Origin: Eledone cirrhosa
Taxonomy: Eukaryota
Reading direction: 5' to 3'
DNA: 64,000 nucleotides
NCBI GenBank assembly: GCA_964016885.1
Contig: OZ024743.1
Span: 315,270,001-315,334,000 of the forward strand
This document shows, piece after piece, positions 156 through 62,045 of this stretch; position 1 is the stretch's first letter, and each line of letters starts with the position of its first letter. The translations under genes and the position numbers were made by a program. The notes under the pieces are model-generated. The model saw only the letters and a program-made list of their open reading frames with translations, searched no databases and was not told the DNA's origin.

Positions 156-346
156 AACGAAGGAGGTGTGGTAAGGAACCAGATGGACCATAACGCACCA
201 GAGTTTTCAATACTTAGGTTAGTAGAGTGGGTAATAGAAAAAAGAGTAACCCCGTCGGCAGAGCTCAAGACGTTTCGACAGCTATTTCTGTCCAGAAATA
301 CGCGTTGAAACGGCTTGAGCTCTGCCGTCGGGGTTCAACTTTTTCA
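156..346. mobile_element. Asymmetric inverted-repeat element (family B) in (TA)n; probable PLE terminal-repeat fold-back or MITE
   Basis: cccgtcggcagagctcaagacgtttcgacagctatttctg pairs with cagaaatacgcgttgaaacggcttgagctctgccgtcggg. The left arm has about 80 nt extra. Homologous to 3137-3260 and 61633-61940. Confidence 0.75.
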
Positions 347-3136: not shown

Positions 3137-3257
3137 TCGAAACGGCTTGAGCTCTGCCGTCGGGGTCATACATTTTCCTATTGCCCACTCTACTACCCTA
3201 AATATTGCGCACACTGGTGCGTTATGGTCCATCTGGTTGCTTATCACATATCTTTCG

Positions 3258-3260
<3 letters not shown>
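3137..3260 (+). mobile_element. Solo arm plus tail of family B element in (TA)n
   Basis: gaaacggcttgagctctgccgtcggggtcata...ttatggtccatctggttgc matches 61818-61940. TA tracts on both sides. Confidence 0.75.
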
Positions 3261-3295
<35 letters not shown>

Positions 3296-3640: not shown

Positions 3641-4935
3641 TCCGCACGCCATCTCACAGTCTGTGGCCTACTCCAATGCCACGGAACACCCGCCAATCTC
3701 TTCAGAGTCGAACAAAGAACCATCTTCATCTTACAGACCCACACTCCTCCCGGCCTGAACTCCCCACCCCTATTCCTTTAGCCTTCGACCGCCCCCCTCC
3801 CTCCACACATATCCCCCACTAACACCCTAACACATCCCTCCTTTTCACCGCCCACTCCACAACTAACAATACTAACACCTCCACTCCACCCCTCATCCGA
3901 CCACGCTTCCCCAACTAACATACTAACATCCCTCCCTTCTTCTCCTTCCCCCCTCCTTATCACACGCACACACCCACCGGCACATATATACACGCGCTCA
4001 CACTAAACACACACCCTACTACCACCACTAGCCCCCACCCCACACCTCCATCCCACCACCCCGCAACTAACATCACTAACACCCCCTGACCCCAAGCACA
4101 CGAACACACGCACCCACTTACACCACCCACCCCACACGCAACTAACATCACTAACACCCCCAACCTCACGCACACGTACCCACACACCCTCGTACACCAC
4201 CAACTCTACACACCCTACCACCACTAACCCCCACTCACACCTGCATTCAACCCTTTCTCCACCTCCCGTATACTAACACCTACTAACACCCCCTTCATCA
4301 AACTACACACACACACCAGTATACCACACTCCTTCCATCGACCGCCACACCCTTCTCTCCCCGCTCCACCCACACCCTTTCTCCACACTCACTCATCCCA
4401 CTAACACCTCTACTAATACACACACACACCCTCCACACTCCAACTTTCACACCTACCCATCCTAGCCCCTTTACCATTCCACCCGACTGCTGTTATGCCC
4501 TTCTGACCACTTCCCAGCACAAACAGACACACAGCACTCCGACCGCCTTGACCACTTCCTGTTGCGCGCGCACCCCACATCTCTCCTCTTCCGACCATCT
4601 CTTCATGGAATACTCGTATGTGGAACTTGACCACCGTGGAATCTACTACCATCATAGGAGTTTACCAACATTTCAACCACATCCTCTTACGGAATCACCT
4701 TCTATAACTCACCCACACACACACCCAAACAATTTTTTTCTCCCACACGCCACCTACACCCACAACACGCATAAACCCCACACACACGTGCTTTCCACCA
4801 CATATTTACACCTTCAGCCTCCGGATTCCTCTCCCTCCACCCCTCTATCCACACACGCACACACACTCCGACCTACACCCCGCCCCACACACACCTCTTC
4901 CTGAACATACAACCCCGTTCTTCCCCCAACCCTTG

Positions 4936-5786: not shown

Positions 5787-8700
5787 TAGTTACCATTATC
5801 TTGCTTTATGTTCATACGAGTTATCACTATGTCACAACCAGTGACCTCAAGAGACAACAAGGTCCGCCATGTTAAAGAAAGAACATACATACACACACAT
5901 GCATCTTTAGGTGTTTAGACCTGTGATGTATTTATATTGTCAGAATCTTCCTTAGTATGTGGATAGTTCCCATTAGTACTATATTTTGTATTTCTCTTAT
6001 TTTCCTCGGCTTTGCGATAAGTAATCATGAGACCCCTTAGGTATCATTCCTAGAACGCCTACAACCACTGGTATTGTTTTAGTTCTCAACTTCCACATTT
6101 TTCCAATTTCTATCTCCAGGTCTTTATACTTGCTCAATTTTTCAAATGTTTTTATTGATACATTCTTGGCTATTGGAACGGACATATCAATTAAGAGGCA
6201 AACCCTCTTTTTAAAGTCCTTCAGTGTTATATGAGATTTATTTGCATCTATTTTTCGATCTGTTTGGATGCTAAAGTTCCACAAGATTGAGATGTGATCT
6301 TTTTCAAGTATGGGAGGTGGTTGATGCTCCCACCAATTCTTTTGATGGGGCAGGTGAAAATGCTTACACATTATCCAATGTATGTATTGTGCAGCTCTGT
6401 CGTGCCTGTTTAGGTATTTGGTTGGAGCTATAGGACTGATCAATGGTGTCTGGTTGTTTTTTACATACACGGCATAATGGGTTGCATCCATTTTTTTTTA
6501 TATTGGCTTGATATTTTTTGTTGGCAGACATCATGTGCTGATATGATCAGTCCTTCAGTCTCCGATTTCAGTCCAGAGGATGCCAACAACTGATCGGTTA
6601 AAGTTTTGTCAACATCAGGGGTGTTAGCTCTTTCTGGGTATTTTCCATACAGAGGATTTTCTTGCCATTTCTTAGCCATACAGAGGATTTTCTTGCCATT
6701 TCTTAGCCAGTTTCTGTAGCAGTTCTTTCTTTGCAGTTCTTTCCTAGGGAGATATATTCTGTCTGTATCTGCCTTAGGGTGATGCATTATGTGCATGGTT
6801 AAGAATTTTCTAATTTTTGTATTGAGCCTACGGATCTCTGTGCTTGACCAGTTGATGACATTGTAACTGTAGGTTACTACTGGTATGGCAAGCTTGTTTC
6901 GATCTTATTCCTTGCATTCAATTCCGTTCTTAAGATTGCTCTTACTCTGCGGTAACATTCCTTCCTTATCCTTTCCCTCATTGTCGAGTGCTTGATTCCG
7001 TCTCCTTCACAAACACCTAGATATTTGTAAGTTTTGTCTTGATCAAGTTCTCTTATCACGTTCCCCCGATCAAAATTAATGTCTGAACTCTTCAGCAGCT
7101 TTCCTCTGGTGAACGTTGCTTTGGCGTTTATCTAGTCCAAACTCCATTTTAATGTCATCACTGAACTGCTCCACAGTGGATAATAGCCCTTGCAATTGTT
7201 CATCCTTTTTTGCAAATAGTTTCGGGTCATCCATGTAGAACAAGTGATTAATGGTTTTGTCATAGACTTTATATCCATGTTTTGTTTCATTGAGCATTTT
7301 ACTTAATGGTATAAGTGCGATGCAGAATAAAAGCGGTGATAAAGAGTCACCCTGAACAATTCCACAATTAATATTAACTTCTCCAGCTTCCAGTGATTTT
7401 GTTTCACTATTCAAAAGGAGTGTCGTTTTCCATGTCTTCATACTGAATGACAAAAACCTCCTGACAACGGGGGATATTTTGAAAATCTCTAAACATTTAT
7501 CAATCCAACTGTGTGGCAAACTATCGAATGCTTTTTTATAATCTATCCAAGCAATCGATAGATTTTTGTGTCTATTATGACAATCTTCCAGTATCATTTT
7601 GTTAACCAAAAGCTGATCCTTACAGCCATATGAGCCTCGTTTACACCCTTTCTACTCAATGGGAAATAGGTCATTTGTTATCAGGTGATAATATGTATAT
7701 TCAGTTAAAATTTCATACATTGTGGTCAAGCAAGTTATTGGTCTGTAATTTTGGGGATTGTTTGTCTCATCATTCTTCGGAAGCAGGAATGTAATGCTGT
7801 TAACTAGCCATGATGGTATCTTTTCTGGCTCCTTAACCATTTCATTGTAAAGTTAAGCTAACAGCTCATGAGACTCTGTGCAGGCATTTATCCAAAAATT
7901 TGGTATTTTGTCTTTCCCTGGGGATTTCCATTTGCTGGTTTTTCTAAGAGCTAAACGCAACTGTTCAACTGTTATATTTTCCCATGTTTGTTCCTCAAGG
8001 TGAGCTGTATCTTTCATTTGTCTGTGAAACCATGGGGCATGTATATTATGAACTTTTTCTTCGGTCCAGATCTTTTCCCAGAATTCTTGCTCTTCCTTCT
8101 TGGCATTTATTGTTGACTTGCCAATTTTTCTGTAGAGGTTTCATTGGTTGTTTTTGAACATATTATTGTCCTTATAGAATCTAGATCGTTTTTCAAAGCG
8201 CCTTATACGAGCAGCTTTGGTCGACACTTTTTGCTTGATTGTTTCTATCAGCATGTCTATGTCACTTGTTGATTTTATACTGTATTTTCTTTTCAATTTT
8301 CTAAGTTTAGTTTGTTTAACATGTTCACCTACTTTATAGTTTGCTAAAATTTCTGTCAGATCGGAGAAGGTTTATTTGGCGATTGATGTTCTCTTGCCAA
8401 CTAGGTTTTTTTGTGGGAATTCCATTGTTTTTTAAGTTTCACTCCACATAAGTGAGTGGTGATTTTAGCCGATGCATAATAGAGATGATTTAGATCAGTA
8501 ATGTTTAGTTTATTTGTGATGATAATGTTTTTGAGAGTTATGTTAGTCTTGTGTATTATCCTTTGGTTTTGTTTGGAGTTCTGGATCTTAGGTAGTCTCG
8601 TTCCCCCATGCCAGATTCTTTCATTTTCATCCATTCGATCAAAATTTTATTCTTCAAGTTGGCGATTTCATTCTCATTCATTTCTTTATCATTTACGATC

Positions 8701-9460
8701 TCATTATTTTCATTTGGAGTTTCATCCTGAGCATGCACTCCCTCCACTTTTTCGCTCCTTTCTTTAATTTGTTCTGCTGTCAGTGATTCCGCCCCAACCC
8801 TGGGATTCGAAATGTTACAATTTACCTCGTTTTCACTGACACATGTTTCATTTTCCTTTCGCTGACTTTGCGCTAATTGCTTCATCTGATCAATTTCTAT
8901 ATCAGTTAGTAACATTTTCGTAACAATATTTCTTCGTATATTAGCTAGTTTGTTACTGTCAATATAGTCCCTGTTTTCGGGATGTTTCTTTTTCCAGTTG
9001 ATATACGTCTGTGTTCGATCTATTTGATGGGTAGAACATGGTAGTGTAGAAAGCCTCAAGGACTTCTTTATTGTCTTCCATTGACCATTTTTCTCTCTTT
9101 TTCTTTGAGTTTCTTAGTGGTGAGCATGGAGAGCCAATAGTAGGACTATTCCGATTATGGGAGGTCTCCAGGTCCGAAATTATGGTACGGTTTGAACCAT
9201 TATCTGACTCTTCGACCCCAGTCTGGTTCCTCTCTGAGGGACCCGGCCCATTTTGACCCGGGTGAGGGCCGATCCGGTATGAGATTATATCATTTGACAT
9301 TGGCTTTATTTTGTTGCGTTTTGTCCTTAACCGCCAAGGGGTAATCATTTGGTGTTACCACTCCTAGGACGAGAGGCAACCAAGACTAGATGGGTCGTCC
9401 TCCCCTAGAGACACGGCTATTCCCCGCCGGCCGCCATCCTGGTATTTCTTGGTCACGGGT
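5787..9460 (-). mobile_element. Near full-length decayed R4/Dong-clade non-LTR retrotransposon (RT + restriction-like endonuclease)
   Basis: RT motifs [44 protein letters not shown] motifs RHD..AQYIHW, IQTD...D, KY.DL.IE...MW...IPVVVG.LG. Frameshifts and stops present. 3' end abuts (TAA)n at 5770-5786. Confidence 0.9.
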
Positions 9461-9734: not shown

Positions 9735-10954
9735 TCTAGGTTGTGGTGGTGAAATTGTCGTTACTTGGCTGTTCTATTATTCCAGCACCCTCTACGCGGA
9801 GGGCTGGACATGCCGTGGCTAATGATGCGCAGACATGTGTTGAGGCTGCGACATCTCCAGATATTCTGCCTAAACGATGAACAAGTGTGGTTGCCGTTAT
9901 CAGACGGGCCTTTCCGCAGCTAGTTTCTTTGATTGAGCTGCAGTCCTGGGTCAATAAGAGACCAAGACTGGGTGACTGGCACCATGAATTTTGCCAGGCA
10001 CTCACTGCCCTCTAACAAGCGGGAAATGCGATCACTGAAACTTCCACTCGAGTTCTATAGAGGATTAGTGGTGGGCAAGTGCGATGACGCACTCGGAGAA
10101 ACTTTGGGCCTCGACGAAGTCGAACTGACCAGTCTGTTCCGGAGGACTTTCGAGCCGGAGACGATGGACAATTTCGAGAAATCCCTCGCTTGACAGTGCT
10201 ACCGGGGGGCACTGCCGGTTCGGGATAAACTCTACAGGCACGGAAGTGCTGTCAGACGGACGTGCCCACGATGCGCACAGAACGACGAAACCGTTCTGCA
10301 CGCACTTGTCCAATGTCCGTGCATTACTGACTTGTGGAGTTATGTGGAATAGCTACTGTCGCGTGTGGAACGAATACGGCTATCGGCCGAGTCCATAGTG
10401 AAGATTGACCTTCCGTCTTCGGTCAAGAAGAACAGTAAATTTTCCTCTGTCTGGTGGCAGTTGCGAAAGAGGTTATATGGTGGACCAGATTAAAAGGATT
10501 GAAGACAGACACTTTTCTCTTCGGCCAATCCTTCATCAACTTCTTCAAGTTTCACCTGGAAAGGAAGGTGAGGGTGGAGAGAGAAATGCTGCTCCCCAGT
10601 ACATTTGCTAAAAGGTGGATGAATGTGGCGAGAATGGCCCGTGTGAATGGGCTTACTCTGACCATGCGCCTATAGGCTAGCTAACTTGAGGAGAAGGGTG
10701 CGCTCCCTGCGTTCCCTAGAAGCGCAAGGTGGTTCAGGATTGGTGGGGTACCCGAGTGACCCCAGAGTCGTCCAGCCCTATCGGAGAATTTATTTTGTTA
10801 TATTTATGCATAGTTTATTTTATATTCTTCATATCTTCATTGTTAAATTAGTCTTGCCATTGTGCACTTTTACTCGACCTTATTGTAAACCGCCACTGTC
10901 CCTGTCTTTGTATTGTTCCCTACATGTCGGCCCTTGTGGCTAATAAAGGAAATC
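9735..10954 (+). mobile_element. 3' fragment of Tx1/L1-clade LINE (ORF2 C-terminus with zinc-binding region, 3' UTR) ending in (ATT)n
   Basis: YRGALPVRDKLYRHG...CPRC...ETVLHALVQC and AVAKEVIWWTRLKGL. 3' end gcccttgtggctaataaaggaaatc(att)n. Confidence 0.85.
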
Positions 10955-10984
10955 ATTATTATTATTATTGCCAATCCACTGCCA

Positions 10985-11170
10985 GGGCGGTGGATTAGCA
11001 GTATCGGTAGAGGGTCGGACGCCATGCTTTGAAAAATAGAGTTACGGCCTTGCCATTCTGAGTTCAAATCCCGCCGAGGTAAACTTTGCCTTTCATCCTT
11101 ACGGTGTCGATAAATTAAAGTACCAGTAATGTACTGGGTAATTGTGGCCTTGTGCCAAAAGTAGAAACAA
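10985..11170 (+). mobile_element. tRNA-derived SINE (family S1) with (ATT)n tail
   Basis: A-box-like tggattagcagtatcggt, B-box gagttcaaatccc, central ctttgcctttcatccttacgg.gtcgataaa..aagtaccag, tail gccttgtgccaaaagtagaaaca(att)n. Confidence 0.9.
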
Positions 11171-11231
11171 TTATTATTATTATTATTATTGTTATTATTA
11201 TTATTATTATTATCATTATTATTATTATTTT

Positions 11232-11645
11232 TCGTGGACGTAGACACGTCGCAGAAAATTTTGTTCCCGTAAGTTTGTGATTTTTGAAAAGTTTTTATTG
11301 CGAACTTAATGTGAAAACCATATTATTTTGTGTTTAAACACACTCCACTTCTATTGAAGTGGTCGAAATTAATCGCTATCTAGCCCTTTGGGGCTAAATT
11401 CCAATTTGAACTTTGCATTTATCAAATACATCGTGGAAGTAGACACGTCGTCAAAAAAAAAAAAATTTTGTTCCCGTAACTTTGTGATTTTTTTAACATT
11501 TTATTGCTAACTTAATGTAAAAACCATATTATTTTGTGTTTAAACACACCCCACTTCCTTTGAAGTGGTCGAAATTAATCGGTATTTAGGCCTTCGGGGC
11601 TAAATCCCATTTTGAACTTTGCGTCTAGTAAATACGTCCCGCCAA
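11232..11645 (+). repeat. Two tandem ~200-bp units, possibly 5' promoter monomers of the downstream Tx1 element
   Basis: tcgtgga.gtagacacgtcg...ggggctaaat.cca.tttgaactttgc repeated at 11232 and 11431. Confidence 0.75.
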
Positions 11646-12189
11646 AAAAAAAAAAAAATGGTGTCATTCAAAAATTCCATCTCTATGCCGTGCATACATT
11701 CAAAAATTACACTTTCAGCAAGATATCCTTCAGAAACTTTTCTTTCTTCGTCCACTCCCCTCTCCCCTCCATCAAGTCGTGAAGCAACTGCCACTGATAC
11801 AATTGAACAATTGATACACTTGATTCATTTATAATCAAAGAAACTAGCAACAACCAGAGTGAAGTCTCGCTTTCCTTTTCCTTTTCTTCACCAAATAATA
11901 ACAATCAAACGAAAGCCACTCTTTCCTCTTCACCCAACGGCAGTCTTGAAGCGGCTGCTGCTGATACATATAACAACAAGGGAGATAGCAGCAGCGACAG
12001 TATTAACGATAACACCTGTGGTAGCAGTAGCGGCGGTAGCAGCAGCAACACCAACAACGCCGTTTGTAGCAGTGGCAATACCAACAACAGCACCAACAAC
12101 AAGACCAGTAGCAGCAGTAGCGGCGGCAACAATGACGCCACTGAAAAAGAGACCAACTCTTTTGCAAAAATAACTCGCAACATAGAAAC

Positions 12190-15100
12190 AATGATCACAG
12201 AGGAGGAGATGGCGGCTGCAAGACACATGGTAACGAGAACTGAATTGTCAGTGTCCTTGAAACCACCAACCGACTTCCTGGAGTAGCAAGGGCGACGCAC
12301 ACTGTCGTACCGCACGATTCCCACGAAATCGTGCCGTGCGGAGAAAGCCTAGGAGGCCCAAATCCAGAGGGCCTTGGCAACTGTGTGGGCACGGAAAACC
12401 CACATCACCCGTGGCAAGAAATATGCTACTGTGGACGTCCTTCCAAGGAAGCAAAATCGCACTCACTGAGGACCCTATGGAGTGATGAAATAACGTTTAT
12501 CCCGTTTTACTGCGGGAAAAAAATTGAAAAGGTCAAAGTAACTGAGGTCCAGCCCTATGTAACCGTGCCTTGGCTGGTCGTGTCTGTTCTAGCGGACATC
12601 GAAGATAAAACAACCATTCTGCCGGTACAGAAGTTGTGAGAGGGGACTGGTCCGGTATTGGAATGGAGATGCTCATCTAAACCGACCAGGACTACATCAT
12701 CACTATTCCCGACGAAATAGATCTCAGGAATGGCTCACAACTTCCCATATCTTTTGAAGTAAGGCGCCAAAAATGCTTCAACTGTGGATCAAAGTCTCAC
12801 CTCAGGGCTTTCTGTGTACAGAAAATAACAAAGGCCAAGGTCACCCTCCTTCCAACGCCGGACCCGCGGCCATCAGAAACTGAGCAGTCAGCGAAAAAGT
12901 CGGGAGCTTCTACAGAGAGTAGGAGGACAACGTCCGTGACACCCACATCAAAGTCACAGACAACAAAATCAGCAGAGGCAGCTGCAGCAACAAAAACAGT
13001 TGCACTAGCTGCACCTGTGCCAGGGGCGGCAAACCAAGCTCCACCACCAATAACAACAACAAAGATAAATGAGAGGTTAGAACTCATACTCCTCCTGGAC
13101 CTCCACAGTCGTTCGGACATGGAGTATGAGGCGGTTGAGGAGTGGAAAACGGTTGTTAACAAAAACAAAAGACAAACGGAAAAACACCACAGCTCCTCCC
13201 TCCAAAAGCGAAGGCAAAGAAAGAGGGATAAAGACTGCAAGGAGAATTGCAGCAACACCACCACCATCACCATCACCACCACAAGCATCAACACCAACAA
13301 CAACTACACCACCACCAGCATCACCAAAAACACCAACATCACAAACACAACAAACCACACATACCCAACAGCAACAACAAGAAAACACAGCCATAAACAT
13401 TGCACACCAAGGACTAATGGAACATATAAAACACCACACCGATATTTCAGACGTAAATTACCACACACCACCAACAAGAACATTACCAAAAAACATTAAT
13501 TGTTTCTACGTTAGGCACAAGGCCAGCAAATACCCAGTGCATTACTGGTACTTTATTTTATCGACCCCGTAAGGATGAAAGGCAAAGTTAACCTCGGCGG
13601 GATTTGAACTCAGAATGGCAAGGGCCGTAACTCTATACGTCAAAACATGGCGTCCGACCCTCTACCGATACTGCCAATCCACTGGCAGTATCGGTAGAGG
13701 GTCGGACGCCATGCTTTGACGTATAGAGTTACGGCCCTTGCCATTCTGAGTTCAAATCCCGCCGAGGTTAACTTTGCCTTTCATCCTTACGGGGTCGATA
13801 AAATAAAGTACCAGTAATGCACTGGGTATTTGCTGGCCTTGTGCCTAACGTAGAAACAATTAATGTTTTTTGGTAATGTTCTTGTTGGTGGTGTGTGGTA
13901 ATTTACGTCTGAAATATCGGTGTGGTGTTTTATATGTTCCATTAGTCCTTGGTGTGCAATGTTTATGGCTGTGTTTTCTTGTTGTTGCTGTTGGGTATGT
14001 GTGGTTTGTTGTGTTTGTGATGTTGGTGTTTTTGGTGATGCTGCTGGTGGTAAAACATTAATATTGTACAAATTCAACTCGAAAACTACAAACAATTAAA
14101 ACAAAAATTCACCAAATGCGTTGGGGATTTCAGGGGGTCACTCTCCAAAATAATATACAAAGATATCGTATTGGAGACACCACTGACCAGCCAAGAGGAC
14201 GGTTCTACTGTCCCTTCCACCACATGATCCTTTCTCACTTGCCCCGTTCCTCAACCAACATGGCCGTACTTCGAATAGGCAGGATAAATGCACGTGGCCT
14301 GGGGTCATCTTGAAAGCAGGGTCACCTGCTCAACGACCTCAGGTCACTAAGCATAGATGTGGTGACCATCAGCTAGACCAGAATCTCCGAAGCACGATCC
14401 TTCGCACCGATCTTCGGCGGCTACGATGTATACGCATCTGCCAGCCGTCGAGGATCAGGGGAAGGAGTTGCTGTGCTTTTTCGGAGAGGGTGGATCTCGC
14501 CATACGGCCATCGTCCTGGACTCAGAAGGTAAGTCGGTGGTGCTGGACGTAACCGGCAGCGAAGGCAATTCTTTCAGGGTAGTAGCCATCTACGCCATAA
14601 CAGTGGCAGGACGGCCACATTTCATCAGACGTCTAGAGACCTTTCTTGGAACATGTCGCTCCTTAGTGTTAGTGGGCCGCTGGAACGGTATCTTAGATGC
14701 ACGCTGGGATCATGTGGGGCTAGTAGACAGAACATGAGGGTGTACAAGCCTCAAGAACCTGCTCAGACGTTTTGAACTGTCTGACAGGGATAGTCTGGAT
14801 TATCCGAATGTACCAATGTGGACATGGGCAAACTGCATAGGGTCATCCAGATCGTATTTAGATAGGGTATTCTGTGCAACATGTAAGTTGTCCACAATTT
14901 AAAGTAGTCGACTACACGTCTTTCCCGCGCGCAAAGCTTACAGAGAACGGATTAGCGAATTAGTTAAGCGTGCGTTGACGAGTGCAATCGTGAACAAGCA
15001 GTGGTGGCTTACCCTGAAAAGAGCTATTAGAGTAGATAAGGTTTAGCAAAGGAGTAGTGATAGAGGAAAATAGTGTAAAGGAAAAGCTAATTAGAAAACT

Positions 15101-16723
15101 AGAAGAGGCGTTTAGGACAGGCGTTTAGGACAGACTTATTCGGCGACCTCTTGGCAGATGTCTACTGCAACTGGCAGCAGAACGGGGCATTCCCAGTTTT
15201 GTGAGCCGGGGACCGATGGCGCTGCTGAGAAAAGACCCGAACATAGAGGACGTTAATAACAACTTCAGGCCCATAACTCTGCTAAACACAGAGTTCAAGA
15301 TTTTGGCCAAGGTGTTACCAAAGAAATTGGCGCTTGTCGTCGGTAATCTGGTGGGAGAAGCGCAGACATGCGCGATTCCAGACAGATCTATCCAGGACAA
15401 CCACCATCTCTTGCAATACATCATAGAGAGCGTGATTAAGGAACCTGGCACGGGTGAGGCTCTGATCAACTTGAATCAATCTAAAGCATTTGTTAGGGTC
15501 GACCATCGGTACCTGGCTGCAGTCCTCGAAGCGACCGGCTTCGGGCCCATTTTTAGAGGCTGGATCGCTGCAATGCACAGCGACATCTGCTCGATTGTGA
15601 GGGTGAATGGTCACCTGTCGTAGCCGTTCAGCATCATGCGCTCGGTCCGCCAAGGTTGTCCCCTGTCGTCCCTCTTGTACTTACTGGCTCTCGAGCCATT
15701 ACTGCACAAATTAGAGATGTGTGGACTGGGATGCGGAAGATCCGTGTCGGCTTGCGCCGACGACGTCACCGTGGTGGTATCGAGCACCAAACACGTCCAT
15801 ATGCTCGGTCCCGCTCTCAAGGAATACGAAGCGGTGACAGGAGCAAGGATAAACCAACAAAAGTGGTAGGCTTGCAACTCGGCACCTGGAGAGGCCAGTC
15901 CATGCCGTCCGACAGCGTCGTGGGGCGCTGGACAGAGGGACCGGTCAAATTGCTCGGGGTCTGGTTCGGTCTGGACCTCCAATGGAGAAAAACTGGAATG
16001 AGGTGACGAGCAGGATGGCTTCTCTCACCCAGAAATGGGCCTAGAGGAGGCTGTCTCTGAAAGGTCGGGTGGAGGTGGGGAATGCGTACATCGCGTCCGT
16101 CATCTGATACCGCCTGACCGTCGTACCTTGCCCCCGTCCAACGCTGACCAAAATGGAGCGCCTTCTCTTCCGCTTTTTGTGGAAGGGATGTGCTCCCATA
16201 GTCAAACGATCCATCTGTTGTCAGTACCCGTTTAAAGAGGAGGAAGGACAAGCAGTCTTCATCTGCCTGGTGGCCTGGCGAAAAAGATTATGTGGTGGAC
16301 AAGGTTAAAAACGTTGAAAACGGACACTTTCGTCTCCGGCCAATCCCCGACTAACTTTTTCAAGTTTCACTTGAAGAGGAAAATCAGGGTTGAAAGGCAA
16401 GTGCTGTCTTCTAGTAAATTTGTTGAAAGGTGGGTGAAAGTGGCGTGTGGTCCGAGTATGCGCCTGTAGACTGAGGAATGGGAAAACTGAGGGAGGGCGC
16501 TTGCCCTGGTAGTCAGGGTGGCCATGATCAATTGTGTGGTTTTCGTTACGAGTGACCCTCGGAAGCTTCCCCCTTTTTCGGGAATTTTTATTAATTGAAT
16601 TTTATTTATTTTGCACGTTTCTGTCTTTTATAACCTTTTTACACGGGCCAAACCGTCTTTGTATCGTCCTGTGCCATCTGTAATTTTTTTCTTCATGTTA
16701 GCCCTTGTGGCCAATAAAGAAAC

Positions 16724-16725
<2 letters not shown>
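12190..16725 (+). mobile_element. Near full-length decayed Tx1/L1-clade LINE (ORF1 gag-like knuckle; ORF2 APE + RT)
   Basis: CFNCGSKSHLRAFC (CX2CX4HX4C) at 12774-12815. ORF2 starts MAVLRIGRINARGL at 14260, then SRSYLDR, NFRPITLLNTEFKILAK, VRQGCPLS, ACADD. Internal deletions near 15125 and 16235. 3' end gcccttgtggccaataaagaaacc(att)n. Confidence 0.88.
13308..14051. repeat. ~370-bp-arm near-perfect palindrome containing head-to-head SINE S1 copies (13501-13682 -, 13683-13860 +)
   Basis: Centre tactgcca-atccac-tggcagta. Arms differ by very few changes. Direct repeat aaaacattaat at 13490-13500 and 14052-14062. Confidence 0.92.
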
Positions 16726-16756
<31 letters not shown>

Positions 16757-16758
<2 letters not shown>

Positions 16759-17430
16759 GGCGGTGGATTGGCAGTATCGGGAGAGGGTCAGACGCCATGC
16801 TTTCCAGCATAGTTACGTCCCTTTACGATCTGAGTTCAAATCCCGCCGAGGTTGACTTTGCCTTTCATCCTTATGGGGTCGATAAAATAAAGTACCAGTC
16901 ATGCACTGGGGTCGATTTAATCGACTTTCTCCTCCCCCAAATTACTGGCATTGTGCCTATATAAGAAACCATTATTATTATTATTATTGGCAGTATCGGT
17001 AGAGGGTTTGACACCATGCTTTGCAGCATAAAGTTACGGCTCTTGTCATTCTGAGTTCAAATCCCGCCGAGGTTAACTTTGCCTTCCATCCTTGCGGGGT
17101 AGATAAAATAAAGTACCAGTCACGTAGAAAGTCAAAAGACAAAGTTAACCTCTCCTGGATTTGAACTTAGAACGTAAAGGGCCATAACTATATGCCGCAA
17201 AGCATGTTGTCAGACGCTCTATCAGAGAATAATGATTACTGATTCAGGCACAAAGCAAACAATGTTCAAGAAGAAATAGTCGATTAAATCGACTATCGTG
17301 TTTTACTGGTACTTTATTTTATCGACCCCATAAAGGTGAAAGGCAAAGTTTAACCCCATAGATATTTGAACTCAAAACGTAAAGGGCCATAACAATATAC
17401 TGCAAAGTATGTTGTCTGGTGCTCTACCGG
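16757..17430. mobile_element. Cluster of four S1 SINE copies (16757-16970 +, 16988-17122 +, ~17125-17225 -, ~17245-17430 -)
   Basis: Each matches the S1 head or central domain. The first two sit in (ATT)n runs after the Tx1 3' end. Confidence 0.85.
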
Positions 17431-18538: not shown

Positions 18539-18574
<36 letters not shown>

Positions 18575-18725
18575 ATACTTTGGGAGGGTCATGTTGCCAA
18601 TAAGAAACACACGCACCAGTTGCTTTCACTTCAATTTAATTTATTATATATTTATAAATTTACAAATTTATAAATTTCTGGTTGGTTGGTTGGTTCCACA
18701 ACCAGATAGTTGTTTATATATATAT

Positions 18726-18770
18726 AGTCATAGTTCTTTCGTCACACACTCTGTGACCTCTTCAGTGACT
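18726..18770 (-). ncRNA. Minimal type I hammerhead ribozyme (family A)
   Basis: Reverse complement of 20121-20165. Confidence 0.8.
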
Positions 18771-19460
18771 GGGGATTTCTTTCGTCGTTTCTGTGCCTTT
18801 CCTTTCTTCTATCCTACGCCATTTTGTTTGTGTGTGGGTTGCGTGCTCAGTTTGCGCATGCGCCACATCCGGGTGTCTGTGTGTGTTTGTGTTCATTTTT
18901 CTATTTTTCTATTTATATTTGTTTGTTTATTTATTTATTTATTTTTTGTTTGTTCTATGTGTGTGTGTGTTTTCATTTTGTCTTGTGTGTGTTTTCATTT
19001 TGTGTGTGTTTTCAATTGTAAGTTGTTTGTTCTATGTGTGTGTGTGTTTTCATTTTGTCCTTAATTGTAAGTTGTGGTGTTGCTGTTCCACTCATATTTT
19101 CTATTTAATTTTGGTTTTAATTCTTTTATGCTTACTGCCTCTGTAATTTGCCTAAACATTGCGTCTTTCTTGTGTGTGGATTCTATTTTTATTTCTATGC
19201 TCTCTAATTTACCCCTGTGTTCTATCTTAGCATGTTGGTAGAGCACAGATGATTCTTTACTATCTTGGAGGTCTCGCCAGTGTTCATTTATTCGTTCCCC
19301 TATACTACGAGCTGTCTCACCTATGTACACTATATTTTTGTTTCTACATTGTCCTTCAGTACATCTTATGCTATATACTACATTTCTAGTTTTACAGTTA
19401 ATATGGGGGCTTATTTTACAGGTTATACATTTATTTTACAGGTTATACATTTCTTCTTTA

Positions 19461-19834
19461 AGAAATGTATAACCTGTAAAATAAGCCCCCATATTAACTG
19501 TAAAACTAGAAATGTAGTATATAGCATAAGATGTACTGAAGGACAATGTAGAAACAAAAATATAGTGTACATAGGTGAGACAGCTCGTAGTATAGGGGAA
19601 CGAATAAATGAACACTGGCGAGACCTCCAAGATAGTAAAGAATCATCTGTGCTCTACCAACATGCTAAGATAGAACACAGGGGTAAATTAGAGAGCATAG
19701 AAATAAAAATAGAATCCACACACAAGAAAGACGCAATGTTTAGGCAAATTACAGAGGCAGTAAGCATAAAAGAATTAAAACCAAAATTAAATAGAAAATA
19801 TGAGTGGAACAGCAACATCACAACTTACAATTAA
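19461..19834 (+). pseudogene. 5'-truncated PLE GIY-YIG endonuclease domain (mirror copy 19061-19455 on -)
   Basis: CKTRNVVYSIRC...VYIGETARSIGERINEH...LYQH...RQITEAVSIKELKPKLNRKYEW. The frame is open but there is no RT upstream. Confidence 0.9.
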
Positions 19835-20120
19835 GGACAAAATGAAAACACACACACACATAGAACAAACAACTTACAATTGAAAACACACACAAAATGA
19901 AAACACACACAAGACAAAATGAAAACACACACACACATAGAACAAACAATAAATAAATAAATAAACAAACAAATATAAATAGAAAAATAGAAAAATGAAC
20001 ACAAACACACACAGACACCCGGATGTGGCGCATGCGCAAACTGAGCACGCAACCCACACACAAACAAAATGGCGTAGGATAGAAGAAAGGAAAGGCACAG
20101 AAACGAAGAAAGAAATCCCC

Positions 20121-20165
20121 AGTCACTGAAGAGGTCACAGAGTGTGTGACGAAAGAACTATGACT
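20121..20165 (+). ncRNA. Minimal type I hammerhead ribozyme (family A)
   Basis: Stem I AGTCA/TGACT, core CTGAAGA, stem II GTCACA/TGTGAC, GAAA, very short stem III (G-AA-C), predicted cleavage after UA. Confidence 0.8.
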
Positions 20166-20377
20166 ATATATATATAAACAACTATCTGGTTGTGGAACCA
20201 ACCAACCAACCAGAAATTTATAAATTTGTAAATTTATAAATATATAATAAATTAAATTGAAGTGAAAGCAACTGGTGCGTGTGTTTCTTATTGGCAACAT
20301 GACCCTCCCAAAGTATAATAATATCGGTTTCAACACACGATTTCAGATAAAGAATCTTGCTAAACAAATTCAGAAAC

Positions 20378-36530: not shown

Positions 36531-36745
36531 GCAGTGGATTGGCGCTACATGTAGAGCGTCGGACCTTATGCTTTACGGCATAGAGTTATAGGCCTTTACG
36601 TTTTGCGTTCAAATCCCGCCGTTGTTAGCTGTGCCTTTTATCTTTACTGGGGCGATAATATAAAGTACCAGTAATACACTGTTTGATTTAATCGGCATTC
36701 CGCTCCCACTGAATTTTTTACCTTTCGCTTAAAACAGAAAATATT
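36531..36745 (+). mobile_element. Diverged SINE S1
   Basis: gcagtggattggc...gttcaaatcccgcc...aaagtaccagtaa. Confidence 0.8.
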
Positions 36746-38402: not shown

Positions 38403-38457
38403 AGACAGATAGATAGATAGATAGATATATAGATAGATAGATAGATAGATAGATAGA

Positions 38458-39780
38458 TTTCTTTATTAGCCACAGGGGCACAAAAGAAGGGGACAAATAC
38501 AAAGGGGGAAGTTTACATACAATAAAAACGTGTAAAATGTTATCACAGATGGAATTTAAAAGTTAGTCGATTTTCCCCAATAGAGGGAGACAGTTTATAT
38601 GGGTAACACATACCCCCGAAAAAAAATGTGCAACCCTCATCTCCAGGAGTACGAAGAGCTTGTACTCCTTTCCTCTCCTCCTCCTTTTCCTCAACCTACA
38701 GGCTGATATAGAGAGAAGGCCCATTCACTCGGGCCATTCTCGCCACTTTCACCCACCTTTCATAAAACTTGCTGGGGTACAGCACCTCTCTCTCCATCCT
38801 GATTCTTCTTCCAAAGTGGTATTTGAAAAAAAGAATCAGTTGTTGGCCGGAGAGAAAGGTGTCTGACCTCAGCCCTTTCAACCTTGTCCACCATACAACC
38901 TCTTTCGCCATAGCTATCACACAAAGGAAAACCGCCTCTCCTTCGTTTTTGAAGGAGGGTGGCGGTTTGATAGCCACTGTACAGAGGAAAACCGCCTCTC
39001 TTTCGTTTTTGAAAGAGGCTGGCGGTTTGATCCTTACTATGTACTCGACAGTCAACTGGATTTGTCCCATACGCGACAGCAGTTGTTCTGCATAATTCCA
39101 CAGGTCGCTTACACCCGGGCAGTGTACAATTGCGTGCAAGACGGTTTCAATGGCCTGCTCACATCTTGGACACGTCCTCTTGGAAGGATCCCTGCCGGGG
39201 CGTCCGTGCCTGTAGATCTTATCTCGAACGGGTAGAACTTCTCAGTAGCACTGCCAGGCCAGGGACCTCTGGAAGTTATCCATAGGTCCCGGGCGGAAAG
39301 TCCTACCGAACAGACTGGTAAGCTGGTAGTTTTCGACGCCTAGAGTCTCCCCGAGCACGTCGTCGCACTTGTAAAGTACTAACCCTCTATAGAATGTCGA
39401 AGTTGAGTCTCCGCTGATTGCTGTGCCCACTTGACAGAGGACTGTGAGCGCCTGGGCGCATTCAATGTGCCAGGCGCCCATCTTCTTCGGTCTTCTCTTG
39501 ACCCAGTACTGCAGCTCCGTCAGCGAGACAAGTTGTGGGAAGGCCTGTCTCACAAACGGTGCCTACACCGGTTGGTCGGTGAGGAATACCTGAAGACGCC
39601 GTAGCCTCAGCGCACGTTTGCGCATCATTAGCCACGGCATGCCCATCCCTCCGTTTGAAGGGTGTTGACTGCAGACGAATCTCCTCACCAGTAGAGCCTG
39701 CTTCTTCCACGCGAACAGGAAGAGCATGCGTTCCATCTTGGTGAGGTATTCACGGGGACAAGGCACGACAGTCAAGCGGT

Positions 39781-55432: not shown

Positions 55433-55900
55433 AAACGGAATAGAAAATGCTGACAAATTGCTCACAGTGAAAAATAGATTAATTAGGGATAAGTGAGAAT
55501 TAGTAATAGTATTGGTTAGTATTCAGTTTTACCGGTTGCGCATTCTAATGCTTTTCAAAAATAATTTTGAGATAGGGCGTCCGTGATGTTTGCTCTGATC
55601 TGATTAGTTTTGGGAATTCTACCTGTTTTTATGTTTAAAAAGTGGCTCCAGCGGTATTAAAATAAGTGTTGCAAAAATTATTGTGGTCAAAACAATTTTG
55701 ATTGGTCGGTAGAGGTCATGTGAATGTAAAAAATTGATTTTGCGCCAAATGTAGGTTTGTGTCGGCTGACTGAGAAATAAGTATTTCACAACAAATATGT
55801 GTGTGTGTGTGTGTAGTAGTAGTAAAGAGGTTCGTTGTTGTGATAATGGTCAGCAGGGATGTGTGTGCGAACCTGTTGACAGTTCAAATGCCTATTAAGA

Positions 55901-55931
<31 letters not shown>

Positions 55932-56280
55932 AGCAGAGTAATTCGTGGTAGAGGGATGGTCAGTAGGAATGTGTCTGTAAGTGTGAGGGGGATATTTTAA
56001 CATGTTAAAAGATATTTTTCAGCTCTTGTCTTATACGGAGAAGTGTGTGTGTATGTCTCTTTGTATGTTAATGTACGCGTGTGTATGTGTGTGTGTATAT
56101 ATATGTGTGTGTGTGTGTGAGAGAGAATGTGTGTGATTGGACAAGTATTTTTTTCTGGTAAAATGGTGTACATTATTCGATATTTTCAGTAAAATCGATT
56201 CTCTCAATAGAACATCAAAAACCTTAATAATAAAAGGTTTGAAATGATATATAGTATTGGCATAATACCAAGGTGTGTGT

Positions 56281-56535
56281 GAGTGTGTCCAGATTGTACG
56301 TACTGCAAGGGGATCCATTAGGCCTTGCCGTATTGGAATACCTGTGAACAAATATGTATCTGGAGTGTGTCCAGAAATTGTATACCTGTGCACAAATTGT
56401 ACACATGTATCTGGAGTGTGTCCAGAAATTGTATACCTGTGCACAAATATGTATCTGGAGTGTGTCCAGATTGTACGTACCGCAAGGGGAATTCATTAGG
56501 CCTTGCCGTATTGGAATACCTGTGCACAAATATGT
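56281..56535. repeat. Tandem repeats in the family E spacer
   Basis: gagtgtgtccaga...atacctgtg.acaaat units of about 44-82 bp, four times. Confidence 0.85.
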
Positions 56536-56659
56536 CTGTGCCCATCAGTGTGCAATGTATGTGTGCGTTTATGTATCCCCACACACACACACATATTCTC
56601 TCACACACACACACACATATATACACACACACATACACACGCGTACATTAACATACAAA

Positions 56660-56698
<39 letters not shown>

Positions 56699-57265
56699 CT
56701 CCGTATAAGACAAGAGCGGAAAAATATCTTTTAACATGTTAAAATATCCCCCACACACTTACAGACACATTCCTACTGACCATCCCTCTACCACGAATTG
56801 CTCTGCTACACACACACACACACGCACACACACACTTGTCTTAATAGGCATTTAAACTGTCAACAGGCTGCGGTTCGCACACACATCCCTGCTGGCATTA
56901 TCACAACAACGAACCTCTTTACTACTACTACGCACACACACACACACATATATTTGTTGTGAAATACTTATTTCTCAGTCAGCCGACACAAACTTACATT
57001 TGGCGCAAAATCGATTTTTTACATTCACATGACCTCTACCGACCAATCAAAATTGTTTTGACCACAAGAATTTTTGCAACACGAATTGGCGCAAAACTTA
57101 TTTTAATACCGCTGGAGCCACTTTTTAAACATAAAAACAGGTATCAGATCAGAGCAAACATCACGGACGCTCTATCTCAAAATTATTTTTGAAAAGCATT
57201 AGAAATGCGCAACCGGTAAAACTAAAAACCAAAACTGAATACTAACCAATACTATTACTAATTCT

Positions 57266-57576
57266 CCAGAGTAAGAGAGCGGATATGATTTCATTGCAGG
57301 CACGGTGACAGTGGCCAGCAAATTGAGCTCTCCGGGATTTTAGAAGGGCAGAGGCTGCAGGGAGTTTGCCATAGATTTTAGCACCTTGTGCTAAAAGAGT
57401 TTGCCACAATTTTTACAGCCTGACTAGGAGTAGGAAGCTGTCATTCCCTGACGTTATCTCTAGGGATACGGGAATCAGTAGACAGGACCTAGGGGCGGCG
57501 ATGGGGTCAGGGAATTATGGGGCATGAGAGTGAGATCCATCATCTCGACAGTAGTCGACGAATGATGATGATGATG
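57266..57576 (+). mobile_element. RTE-like LINE 3' fragment with (ATG)n tail and 9-bp TSD, inserted in the right arm of family E
   Basis: TSD actaattct at 57257-57265 and 57577-57585. KLSFPDVISRDTGI..QDLGAAM..RELW. 3' hairpin tcgac-agta-gtcga. Confidence 0.75.
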
Positions 57577-59644: not shown

Positions 59645-59950
59645 AAGATCGGAATTAAGAGTATTCCGCAGTTCCCCGTAATAATAATAATAGTATTAGC
59701 TCAAAGAAGAATAGAGAATTTTCTTCTGAGCTCAAATGCAAATATATTACACAAAGAGAAGTGTGTTACACAGTGAGATGTGTGTAAAGAATTATTACAA
59801 GTGAGTTTTACCGTTACTGTATAGAGAACAATATCTACAGGTTTAGCAAGTTTTTTCTATTTAATTGCTAAACCTGTAGATTTTGTTCTCTATACAGTAA
59901 CGGTAAAACCCACTTGTAATAATTCTTTACACACATCTCACTGTGTAATA
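59642..59950. mobile_element. Asymmetric hairpin element (family F; ~83-bp arms 59766-59848 and 59865-59948, ~120-nt one-sided extension) in (TA)n
   Basis: ttacacagtgagatgtg...tctacaggtttagcaa pairs with ttgctaaacctgtaga...cacatctcactgtgtaa. Confidence 0.8.
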
Positions 59951-61632
59951 TATTTATATATATATATATATATATATATACTAGGGTGGACTGAATGGTT
60001 CATCGGATTACCAAGATGCTCTCGTTCCATGACTTTAAACCTAGCTGTTAGTATACAACAATGTCAGATTTGAATTCCCCACCACCATTAACACTACACA
60101 TCGAGGACTTAGCAGCACCCACAACCACAAACCCTTCGACCAACTCTTTCCTCTACACAACTCATATTCATCTCTAACCTTATTCTCTGCAATAACAGTT
60201 AGAATTAAACATAGAGTTACCACCTTGTGATATAACTACAATAGATTAATTATATCATATATAGTAATTGATATTTGGTACTTAGTATGTAGAGACATTC
60301 AATGTAATATATGATAATAATTTATATATGCATTTATAATTATATAATTAAATACTTAAATTAATAACATGTATTTAACACAACATAATAATAATAAAGT
60401 ATATATACATTTATAATTAAATATAAAATGTAATAGCATTGAATATTAGGGATTAATTTTCAAAACAATAATGTATATTATTACACATATGACATATCTT
60501 TTTTGACATATTAACAGCTATACAATTCTTCATAACATATACCTTATCCAGTAATGAATAGATAACAATCTAAAGAGACCTTTAATGTATGATAGTAAAA
60601 TACACTGTATTTAAAATCAGGTATAAATATACAGCGTTGTATAATAGAGATTCAATGGTATCACATTATAATATGTATTAGAAGAAAGAATTTTAATAAC
60701 TGAATTGAACTTAATTAGGTAGTTACCTCCCTTACGCATTAGCTCCCCTTATTCACTTCCGGAAATTAACGATTGGAAAATTTACCGGTTGATCAAAATA
60801 GTCTATGAATATGAATACATTAAGACTAATTTACAATCCATTGCTCTAACTAACTTAAAACATTCAATATAAACATTAACTAAAATGTAATTCAACATAT
60901 GTCATGGAAAAGTCTGCAAAAACTGTATATTTCTCAACACACACAAATTGGAACACTATCAGCTTACAGCATCCATCTTAAATTCTAATACATTAACATA
61001 TTTGCTTAAAGTGAAGTATTTATTCATCTATATATGCATTAAAGCTTTGCTTTTCTCCTTCTCATGTATATGACTAACGCAGTTGCACTCTCCACACGCC
61101 TGCATATGAATTGTTAATGTACTCTTCCTTTCTCAAAACTACTTTCTCAATGCATCTTTAATGATTGGACTATTCTCTTGTTCTATCTGTTGCATATATT
61201 CCACTCCGTGCTTTTGATTTTAATTTGAATTTGAACTTGAATGTTTGTACAATTATTGTACAATTCTCGTAAAATATATGTCACATCCATTCCACCCTGT
61301 AAATACGAAACTGTTGCTCACAACATCAATTTATATGTATCTATATTATTGTTCAGTTGAATAGGAGGTAAATTATATGTGCAAACATTGATAATGCTCC
61401 GATGACGACAAACGAGAGTTTTGAAGAAACGATTGTCAGCTATTAAATGATTTGAACGCAACTTTGATAGTTGTATTATTTATTTATTTTCTTGCTCTGT
61501 AAAACAACTGATGTTCATACATTGAGCCATTTCTCTTATTGGTAATAAGGTAATAAGAAATTACTGACCTTCGTGTTTGTAGTTGTTTATACTATATACA
61601 TAACTATAAATAGTATTATTATTATATATATA

Positions 61633-61940
61633 TAGGAGAAAGTATGACCCCGACTGCAGAGCTCAAGCCGTTTCGACAGCTATTTCTGGACTAAAGCGTC
61701 CGAGTGCACCAGGATGTCGTTGGTACTTTCATACTCCGTTATTTTGCTACGGAGTTGTTGTAGGAATCGGTTGTGTCTGGGTTTCAATTTAATACCTTTA
61801 GGCCAGAAATAGCCGTAGAAACGGCTTGATGTCTGAAGTCGGGGGTCATACTTTCTCCTATTACCCACTCTACTACCCTAAGTATTGAGTACTCTGGTGC
61901 CTTATGGTCCATCTGGTTCCTTACCACATTTCCTCCGTTA
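61633..61940. mobile_element. Family B asymmetric inverted-repeat element in (TA)n
   Basis: Short arm 61633-61690, long arm 61803-61860 and ~80-nt tail to 61940. Confidence 0.78.
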
Positions 61941-62045
61941 TATATATATATATTGAGCACTTTGTCAGTGTCATTTCTGATTTTTGCGTTTCGTTTCGTC
62001 TTTTCTGCCCGCCGAAATGCGATTCTCGCTGAATCTTTATTTGTA

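What the first reader, a model, noticed from the sequence alone, without database searches (positions are those of the whole stretch)
13308..14062. SINE insertion with fold-back copy of itself and ~190 bp of flank, bounded by an 11-bp TSD
Seen: aaaacattaat (13490-13500), SINE(-), SINE(+), an inverted copy of 13308-13500, then aaaacattaat (14052-14062), between Tx1 ORF1 and ORF2. Inference: after target-primed first-strand synthesis the cDNA folded back at the SINE 5' end, copied through the 3' junction into host DNA, then rejoined the target. This would be retrotransposition-generated inverted duplication of flanking DNA, distinct from ordinary twin priming.
Basis: partly seen in the sequence, partly recalled or inferred. 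Interest (0 to 1): 0.72.

Follow-up and report, generated by a model that had tools for sequence, protein, structure and literature searches.

The report
SINE insertion that copied itself back
A short jumping element seems to have folded back on its own fresh DNA copy while inserting, leaving a 744-base mirror-image stretch that includes some neighbouring DNA, a rare variant of a known kind of retrotransposition accident.

Summary
The structure is real. 13308-13676 and 13683-14051 are 369-nt inverted arms with 2 mismatches around a 6-nt loop. The apex lies 5 nt inside the SINE 5' end. The right arm holds a second SINE copy plus 193 nt of host DNA from the primer side. The 11-mer (13490-13500, 14052-14062) starts right after the SINE 3' motif, as duplications of several sibling copies do, so it is a credible TSD. 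The return junction has no microhomology. Best reading (about 0.7): the cDNA 3' end snapped back during TPRT, synthesis ran through the 3' junction into the flank, and the new end was joined to the protected far end. Twin priming and Pol III 3' transduction do not fit. A later, unrelated template switch is not excluded. Colinearity with a Tx1 consensus and read support could not be tested. The parts are known: cDNA snap-back in R2 insertions, and fold-back duplication of the opposite flank in L1 insertions. I did not find this combined topology in ten literature searches. It is one event in one window.

The parts
13308..13500 (+). Host LINE segment (193 nt, A/C-rich) that was duplicated; native copy, on the SINE's 3' (primer) side
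   Evidence: Two reading frames and the 9-nt periodic repeat run across 13307/13308, so this copy is the native one; no other copy in the window apart from the inverted one
13490..13500 (+). TSD copy 1; its last 4 nt (13497-13500) are complementary to the first unit of the SINE (AUU)n tail and are the inferred TPRT primer end
   Evidence: priming role inferred
13501..13682 (-). Primary SINE copy, nearly full length (family positions 6 to end), no tail beyond the 4 shared nt
   Evidence: Alignment of 18 window copies; 22 SINE 5' junctions listed for the window
13677..13682 (+). 6-nt loop at the apex (family positions 6-11); 0-2 nt of priming complementarity, depending on which 5' variant the source had
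   Evidence: the unextended cDNA end has no stable fold (0 kcal/mol)
13683..13858 (+). Fold-back SINE copy, family positions 12 to end; B-box-like motif at 13750-13758 (read by eye, consensus recalled)
   Evidence: 99.4% identical to the primary copy; next best long copy in the window 93.6%
13859..14051 (-). Inverted copy of 13308-13500, including an inverted TSD; one difference 8 nt from its end, either a C/G substitution or a 3-nt slip
14052..14062 (+). TSD copy 2; joined to the inverted copy with no microhomology, no added bases and no loss
   Evidence: next template-directed base would be G; host base before TSD1 is A; base before TSD2 is T
14063..14227 (+). Host resumes; candidate C-terminus of ORF1, in frame with 13081-13500 once 13501-14062 is left out
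   Evidence: weak evidence, since any register pairs at least one open frame; no protein relatives found
14260..16755 (+). Decayed ORF2 and 3' end of the host L1-superfamily LINE, ending in (ATT)n
   Evidence: RVT_1 E 1.1e-21; best solved-structure match human L1 ORF2p E 1e-5, R2 E 0.008

Best explanation
One retrotransposition event. A LINE endonuclease nicked the top strand after 13500 and the bottom strand 11 nt upstream (inferred from the TSD). The top-strand 3' end paired with the first AUUA of the SINE tail and primed cDNA, which ran to within 3-5 nt of the SINE 5' end (junctions shown, priming inferred). The free cDNA 3' end folded back over a 6-nt loop with 0-2 paired bases and was extended on its own strand: 176 nt of cDNA, the TSD, and 182 nt more of host DNA, by displacing the host's lower strand or filling a resected gap (inferred). 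The new 3' end was released and joined without homology to the intact 11-nt overhang of the far end, by end-joining or an RT template jump (inferred). Copying from that overhang opened the hairpin into a palindrome. Most likely polymerase: the LINE RT itself; a host polymerase such as Pol theta is possible.
For: Apex 5 nt from the SINE 5' end; a random point lies within 6 nt of one of the window's 22 SINE 5' junctions 0.45% of the time. The SINE 5' end has no hairpin of its own to attract a later switch. The far junction lands exactly on the first base of the TSD with no microhomology, like the direct joins described for full-length L1 inserts (PMC11702581 passages; PMC4245944 passages). The TSD starts right after the conserved 3' motif, as exact repeats of 7-18 nt do in 8 of 11 other copies where the motif was found (see evidence against). 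Arms differ at 2 of 369 sites and the SINE has only 2 private bases shared by both arms in 174 columns, so both steps are young. Snap-back after full-length cDNA synthesis is an observed class (PMC11371274), and the mirror-image event at the far end is described (PMC11702581 Fig. S9C legend).
Against: One event, no reads, no empty-site allele and no LINE consensus: the window holds no second copy of the ORF1-ORF2 region, and four protein searches found no relative. Of the 8 sibling repeats, 2 lie in (ATT)n arrays, 2 end 26 and 34 nt from the 5' end in simple repeats, and one is only 7 nt; 3 of 11 copies show none and 2 of 14 lacked the motif. The 2 shared private bases (1.1%, 95% interval 0.14-4.2%) against 0.27% per arm (0.03-0.98%) cannot separate one step from two. 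A fold-back with no recognisable element at its apex exists at 59742-59973, so such duplications arise here by other routes too. The apex has at most 2 paired bases.
Confidence: 0.7

Rival explanations
1. Two steps: an ordinary SINE insertion with TSD came first; later a replication or repair template switch folded back at its 5' junction, copied 369 nt and returned.
For: Explains the TSD at no extra cost, since departure and return points are close in such events. An element-free fold-back exists at 59742-59973. Two private SINE bases are shared by both arms.
Against: Needs the switch to fall on a SINE 5' junction by chance (0.45%), where no hairpin exists, and to re-prime with no microhomology. 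Rough expectation per window: about 1 element-free fold-back x 0.0045, against 22 insertions x about 0.3% (human L1 fold-back rate, PMC10191854), roughly 15:1 for the coupled event. This is inference from borrowed rates.
Confidence: 0.12
2. Retrotransposition-coupled but replication-resolved: the cDNA end was sealed as a hairpin (or two sister ends fused head to head), replication made a long palindrome, it broke 369 nt past the apex and joined a replicated blunt far end that still carried the TSD.
For: Hairpin formation by cDNA self-annealing followed by replication is the published model for L1 fold-back junctions (PMC11702581). A blunt join without homology fits.
Against: Needs an extra break close to but off the apex, rescue by the original partner end with no loss, and germline survival of the intermediate.
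Confidence: 0.1
3. Library or assembly artefact (fold-back read, amplification chimera, misjoin).
For: No reads available. Three tight-apex palindromes in 64 kb.
Against: Needs two strand switches, the second exactly at the TSD start. The arms differ by substitutions with no indels, and the left-arm change is a private base against the family. The other two palindromes have their own explanations or diverged arms.
Confidence: 0.05
4. Local re-insertion of a read-through transcript (SINE plus 3' transduced flank), or twin priming on such an RNA.
For: 13683-14051 reads as a SINE followed by its own 3' flank.
Against: A T6 run lies at 13866-13871, with three more T runs after it, where Pol III should stop (established knowledge). 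No tail and no second TSD. Twin priming gives adjacent pieces with 1-10 nt overlap or gap (PMC11702581), not 176 nt of overlap.
Confidence: 0.03

Closest known systems
'Snap-back' 5' junctions of R2-protein (PRINT) insertions, Zhang et al. 2024, PMC11371274 (passages and one part of the reference list read); also PMC11331408 (passages)
   Same: The cDNA 3' end primes DNA synthesis on its own cDNA, often after full-length synthesis, and host DNA is then joined to the antisense copy.
   Different: Engineered system in human cells. The passages I read do not describe synthesis running through the whole insert and its 3' junction into primer-side DNA. Here the event is a natural insertion with an 11-bp TSD.
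'Foldback inversion' at somatic L1 insertions, Nam et al. 2023, PMC10191854 (section 11 read; preprint 10.1101/2022.05.18.492429 passages; Fig. 4 image and supplements not seen)
   Same: Insertion with TSD plus a 52-220 bp inverted duplication of flank, made by extending the cDNA 3' end on DNA; rare (n=3, 0.3%, plus 1 combined).
   Different: There the duplicated DNA is upstream of the target (far-end side) and the text does not describe duplication of the element. Here it is the primer-side flank and the element is copied too.
L1-induced fold-back junctions and inverted duplication next to an insertion, Mendez-Dorantes et al. 2024, PMC11702581 (outline, sections 7 and 13, passages, supplement passages with Fig. 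S9 and S10 legends)
   Same: Self-annealing of an ORF2p-generated end, fill-in, displacement of the new strand and ligation to the other end (Fig. S9C); hairpins at the RT end (Fig. 6A).
   Different: S9C happens at the far end. RT-end hairpins there become chromosome-scale fold-backs, not a small insertion with both flanks and the TSD kept.
Twin priming (5' inversion); original paper not read, described through PMC11702581 and PMC4245944 passages
   Same: Inverted element sequence and preserved TSD.
   Different: Twin priming inverts a 5' piece without duplicating the element and copies no host DNA.
Penelope-like element inverted 5'-truncated copies, PMC8557442 (passages)
   Same: Palindromic insertion with the apex at the 5' truncation; one such element lies at 18567-20324 in this window.
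   Different: Routine for that class, a different enzyme (GIY-YIG), and in this window the copy stops about 60 nt short of the element end with no flank captured.

Membership tests
TPRT-generated SINE insertion | Short multi-copy non-coding element | tested here: met
   About 20 copies of a 185-220 nt unit in the window
TPRT-generated SINE insertion | Target-site duplication abutting the 3' end | tested here: met
   11 bp, beyond both nulls
TPRT-generated SINE insertion | 3' simple-repeat tail or primer microhomology | tested here: met
   4 nt shared between target and first tail unit; several siblings also have tails of one or two units
TPRT-generated SINE insertion | tRNA-derived Pol III head | tested here: inconclusive
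   ARAGORN 0 genes; no tRNA among the 3 Rfam matches, two of which fall on the hairpin; B-box-like motif by eye only
cDNA snap-back junction | Antisense copy begins at the cDNA 3' end and is templated by the same cDNA | tested here: met
   Apex at family positions 6-11; arms share 2 bases private to this copy
cDNA snap-back junction | Formed during the insertion, before 5' joining | not testable with these tools
   Needs allele, population or genome-wide data
Foldback inversion of Nam et al. 2023 | Inverted duplication of about 52-220 bp of flank with TSD | tested here: met
   193 nt
Foldback inversion of Nam et al. 2023 | [quoted passage not shown] | tested here: not met
   It is the SINE's 3' (primer-side) flank
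Twin priming | Inverted 5' piece and 3' piece adjacent, nearly non-overlapping; no host DNA copied | tested here: not met
   176 nt of SINE and 193 nt of host present twice
3' transduction | Read-through RNA with its own tail and TSD | tested here: not met
   T6 directly after the SINE; no tail; no second TSD
Tx1-clade LINE (host) | ORF2 with non-LTR RT | tested here: met
   RVT_1 E 1.1e-21; closest solved structure L1 ORF2p
Tx1-clade LINE (host) | N-terminal APE endonuclease and ORF1 with CCHC knuckle | tested here: inconclusive
   No Pfam hit for either; APE-like motifs by eye only; knuckle gives zf-CCHC clusters at 0.88, a lead only
Tx1-clade LINE (host) | RT phylogeny in the Tx1 clade; consensus continuous across the site | not testable with these tools
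   No eukaryotic repeat or genome collection; no paralog of this region in the window

The most novel reading that the evidence does not exclude
In this lineage, self-primed second-strand synthesis is a regular way for this SINE-LINE pair to finish an insertion. The RT folds the cDNA back, runs by strand displacement for hundreds of bases past its own priming site, and jumps to the protected far overhang. The genome would then hold a countable series of palindromic SINEs, from 14-nt stubs (10970-10983) to flank-capturing ones like this, giving a natural record of the unresolved 5'-joining step of TPRT and a steady source of perfect hairpins.
Probability: 0.17. Interest if true: 0.66.

Novelty: new variant of a known kind. 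Interest (0 to 1): 0.4.

Why it matters
How the 5' end of a non-LTR insert is joined, and what primes the second strand, is still partly open. This allele keeps an intact TSD while showing 369 nt of DNA-templated synthesis from the cDNA end. If it was one event, the far end stayed protected during a long fold-back, and an RT-end hairpin can be rescued as a small heritable insertion instead of a chromosome-scale fold-back. It also shows a way for a SINE to duplicate neighbouring DNA without transduction. As a single case it illustrates and does not prove; a genome-wide count would make it a test.

Tried and rejected
Colinearity by a paralog in the window: only ORF2 3' parts have relatives. Colinearity by protein relatives: three word-index searches gave nothing; the HMMER search gave 3 hits, all internally repetitive proteins that I judge unrelated; the Atlas hit for the 57-aa piece (laminin G, 0.90, 129 shared features, recognition below threshold) was rejected; the endonuclease-region piece had no solved-structure match. 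Frame continuity was tested but is weak, since each side has two nearly open frames. A natural hairpin at the SINE 5' end as trigger: none. Rfam STnc400 and mir-1307 matches are below gathering score and reflect the hairpin. The right-hand flank copy as the native one: rejected, because repeat phase and frames continue across 13307/13308. A census of 14 SINE 5' junctions for snap-back gave the focal one (score 30, capped by the window used) and two of score 7, which 26 of 5,000 random flanks reach: 10985 (a SINE-derived stub, 13 of 14 bases matching the family 5' end but 12 of 14 matching its own neighbour, so ambiguous) and 45052 (probably intrinsic). Gilbert et al. 2005 (PMC1190285) is not held and was not read. 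PMC3995500, PMC13526784, PMC13000458 and PMC3280974 passages held no matching structure. The bacterial, phage and plasmid DNA collections were not searched because the window is eukaryotic; viral and metagenome contigs were closed and stay unchecked.

Full report
OBSERVATION. The finding is accurate. 13308-13676 and 13683-14051 are 369-nt inverted arms around a 6-nt loop, with mismatches only at 13315/14044 and 13645/13714. In order on the + strand: host flank (13308-13500), SINE antisense (13501-13682), SINE sense (13683-13858), inverted flank (13859-14051), an 11-mer identical to 13490-13500 (14052-14062), then host again. The 11-mer has only those two + strand copies in the window, and a third on the - strand inside the inverted flank. 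The longest comparable match at 4,390 other host positions is 6 nt, and 0 of 19,671 random windows reach 9 nt.

THE SINE. About 20 copies lie in the window. The primary copy lacks 5 nt of the longest 5' ends, and the fold-back copy starts at position 12. The loop is therefore the last six bases of the cDNA. If the source had A at position 5, a variant seen at 36531 and in the stub at 10970, two further bases could have paired to prime; otherwise none. The unextended end has no stable fold. A tRNA origin was not shown. The element resembles octopus SINEs as I recall them; that label comes from no call.

THE TSD IS FAMILY-TYPICAL. Of 14 copies examined, 12 had the conserved 3' motif. In the focal copy, and in 8 of the other 11, an exact repeat of the 5' flank begins right after that motif (7-18 nt). 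The clear cases are 51944 (17 nt) and 30020 (14 nt); 48235 (9 nt) and 23178 (7 nt) are weaker, two lie in (ATT)n arrays, two are displaced by simple repeats, and three show none. The focal 11-mer fits, and it ends exactly at the far edge of the inverted flank.

JUNCTIONS. At the 3' junction the target shares 4 nt with the first tail unit. At the return junction (14051/14052) there is no microhomology, no added base and no loss. The difference at 13315/14044 can be read as a substitution or as a 3-nt slip 8 nt before synthesis ended. The other difference is a private change in the left arm. Arm divergence is 0.27% per arm (95% interval 0.03-0.98%), far younger than the host, whose ORFs are broken many times.

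THE HOST. It is a decayed L1-superfamily LINE (RVT_1; best structure match L1 ORF2p). 'Tx1' is plausible but untested. Leaving out 13501-14062 joins a frame that is open for 140 codons before and 54 after and ends 32 nt before the ORF2 ATG, so the site may be in ORF1; a second frame stops inside the TSD. This is weak support for colinearity. No paralog or protein relative was found to test it directly.

MECHANISM. The heads of the two SINE copies meet at the apex, and the captured DNA is the side that primed reverse transcription. So the strand that folded is the cDNA. Best model (0.7): staggered nicks, TPRT to near full length, snap-back over a 6-nt loop, 369 nt of DNA-templated synthesis through the 3' junction, release of the new end, homology-free joining to the intact far overhang, second-strand copying that opens the hairpin. 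The sequence shows the junctions; every step is inferred. Strand displacement and end-to-end template jumping are known for R2 RT (titles and one passage seen in PMC13000458; the primary papers were not read). Pol theta is among the references cited for snap-back.

RIVALS. A later template switch at an existing SINE (0.12) needs a 0.45% coincidence and re-priming without homology, but an element-free fold-back at 59742-59973 shows that such events occur here, and the age data cannot separate one step from two. Hairpin sealing, replication and breakage (0.10) is still retrotransposition-coupled but needs an extra break. An artefact (0.05) needs two switches, the second on the TSD's first base. 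Transduction or twin priming (0.03) fails on the T6 run at 13866, the missing second TSD and the 176-nt overlap.

WHAT IS KNOWN. Snap-back is a named junction class for R2-protein insertions, often after full-length cDNA (PMC11371274; PMC11331408). Somatic L1 insertions carry 52-220 bp fold-back duplications of the upstream flank in 0.3% of cases (PMC10191854; preprint). L1 in cultured cells gives RT-end hairpins that become fold-back junctions, and an inverted duplication at the far end made by fold-back, fill-in, displacement and ligation (PMC11702581). This locus works like those events but fails the 'upstream flank' feature of the L1 class. The exact layout (whole-element self-copy, primer-side flank, intact TSD) did not turn up in searches, of which 54 and 58 returned nothing. 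The library lacks most subscription papers, including Gilbert et al. 2005; figures, the supplements of Nam et al. and Zhang et al., and bioRxiv supplements were not seen and could hold such cases.

CONTEXT. The window holds two other tight fold-backs: a Penelope-like element at 18567-20324 (GIY-YIG; arms 99%), a known habit of that class (PMC8557442), and 59742-59973. A 14-nt antisense stub of the SINE 5' end precedes the copy at 10985 and may be a short snap-back, but it differs from its neighbour at 2 of 14 bases. These keep the bolder reading alive, that snap-back is routine here (0.17), without establishing it.

VERDICT. Real, probably one TPRT-coupled snap-back, a new variant of a known kind, single case. 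Interest 0.4.

Noticed in passing
window 10970-10983: 14-nt antisense copy of the SINE 5' end directly in front of the SINE at 10985, one base apart, inside an (ATT)n tail; possible short snap-back (hairpin -9.1 kcal/mol, 2 of 200 shuffles, chosen after the fact).
   Followed up: partly
window 18567-20324: Penelope-like element (GIY-YIG) as a 1.76-kb palindrome, apex 19456-19459, arms 99% alike, a short tandem duplication next to the apex; the left arm lacks the last ~60 nt of the element and meets (TA)n.
   Followed up: partly
window 59742-59973: Fold-back with arms of about 90-110 nt and an 11-nt loop, no other copy in the window, next to (TA)n; origin unexplained (local inverted duplication or hairpin MITE).
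   Followed up: partly
window 55495-57266: Inverted repeat of about 650-700 nt at 87% identity around a 450-nt spacer with short internal tandem repeats.
   Followed up: no
window 16700-16755, 10930-10969, 38456-38495 (-) versus SINE 3' ends: The last ~25 nt before the tail are alike in three copies of the host LINE family and in the SINE (11 of 12 pairs reached by at most 59 of 3,000 shuffles, best 1 of 3,000, worst 211). This LINE family may be the SINE's partner.
   Followed up: partly
window 9780-17130: Nested cluster: LINE 3' piece, SINE in its (ATT)n tail, a ~200-nt tandem pair at 11232-11638, the host LINE, then two SINEs each in the previous element's (ATT)n tail; suggests preference for (ATT)n targets.
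   Followed up: no
window ~5900-9400, - strand: Another decayed LINE with an RT domain (RVT_1 E 1.6e-21 at 7076-7648), of a different family.
   Followed up: no
window 239-344: Imperfect palindrome (81%) formed by two opposed copies of another dispersed repeat (also at 3137-3293 and 61623-61953).
   Followed up: no
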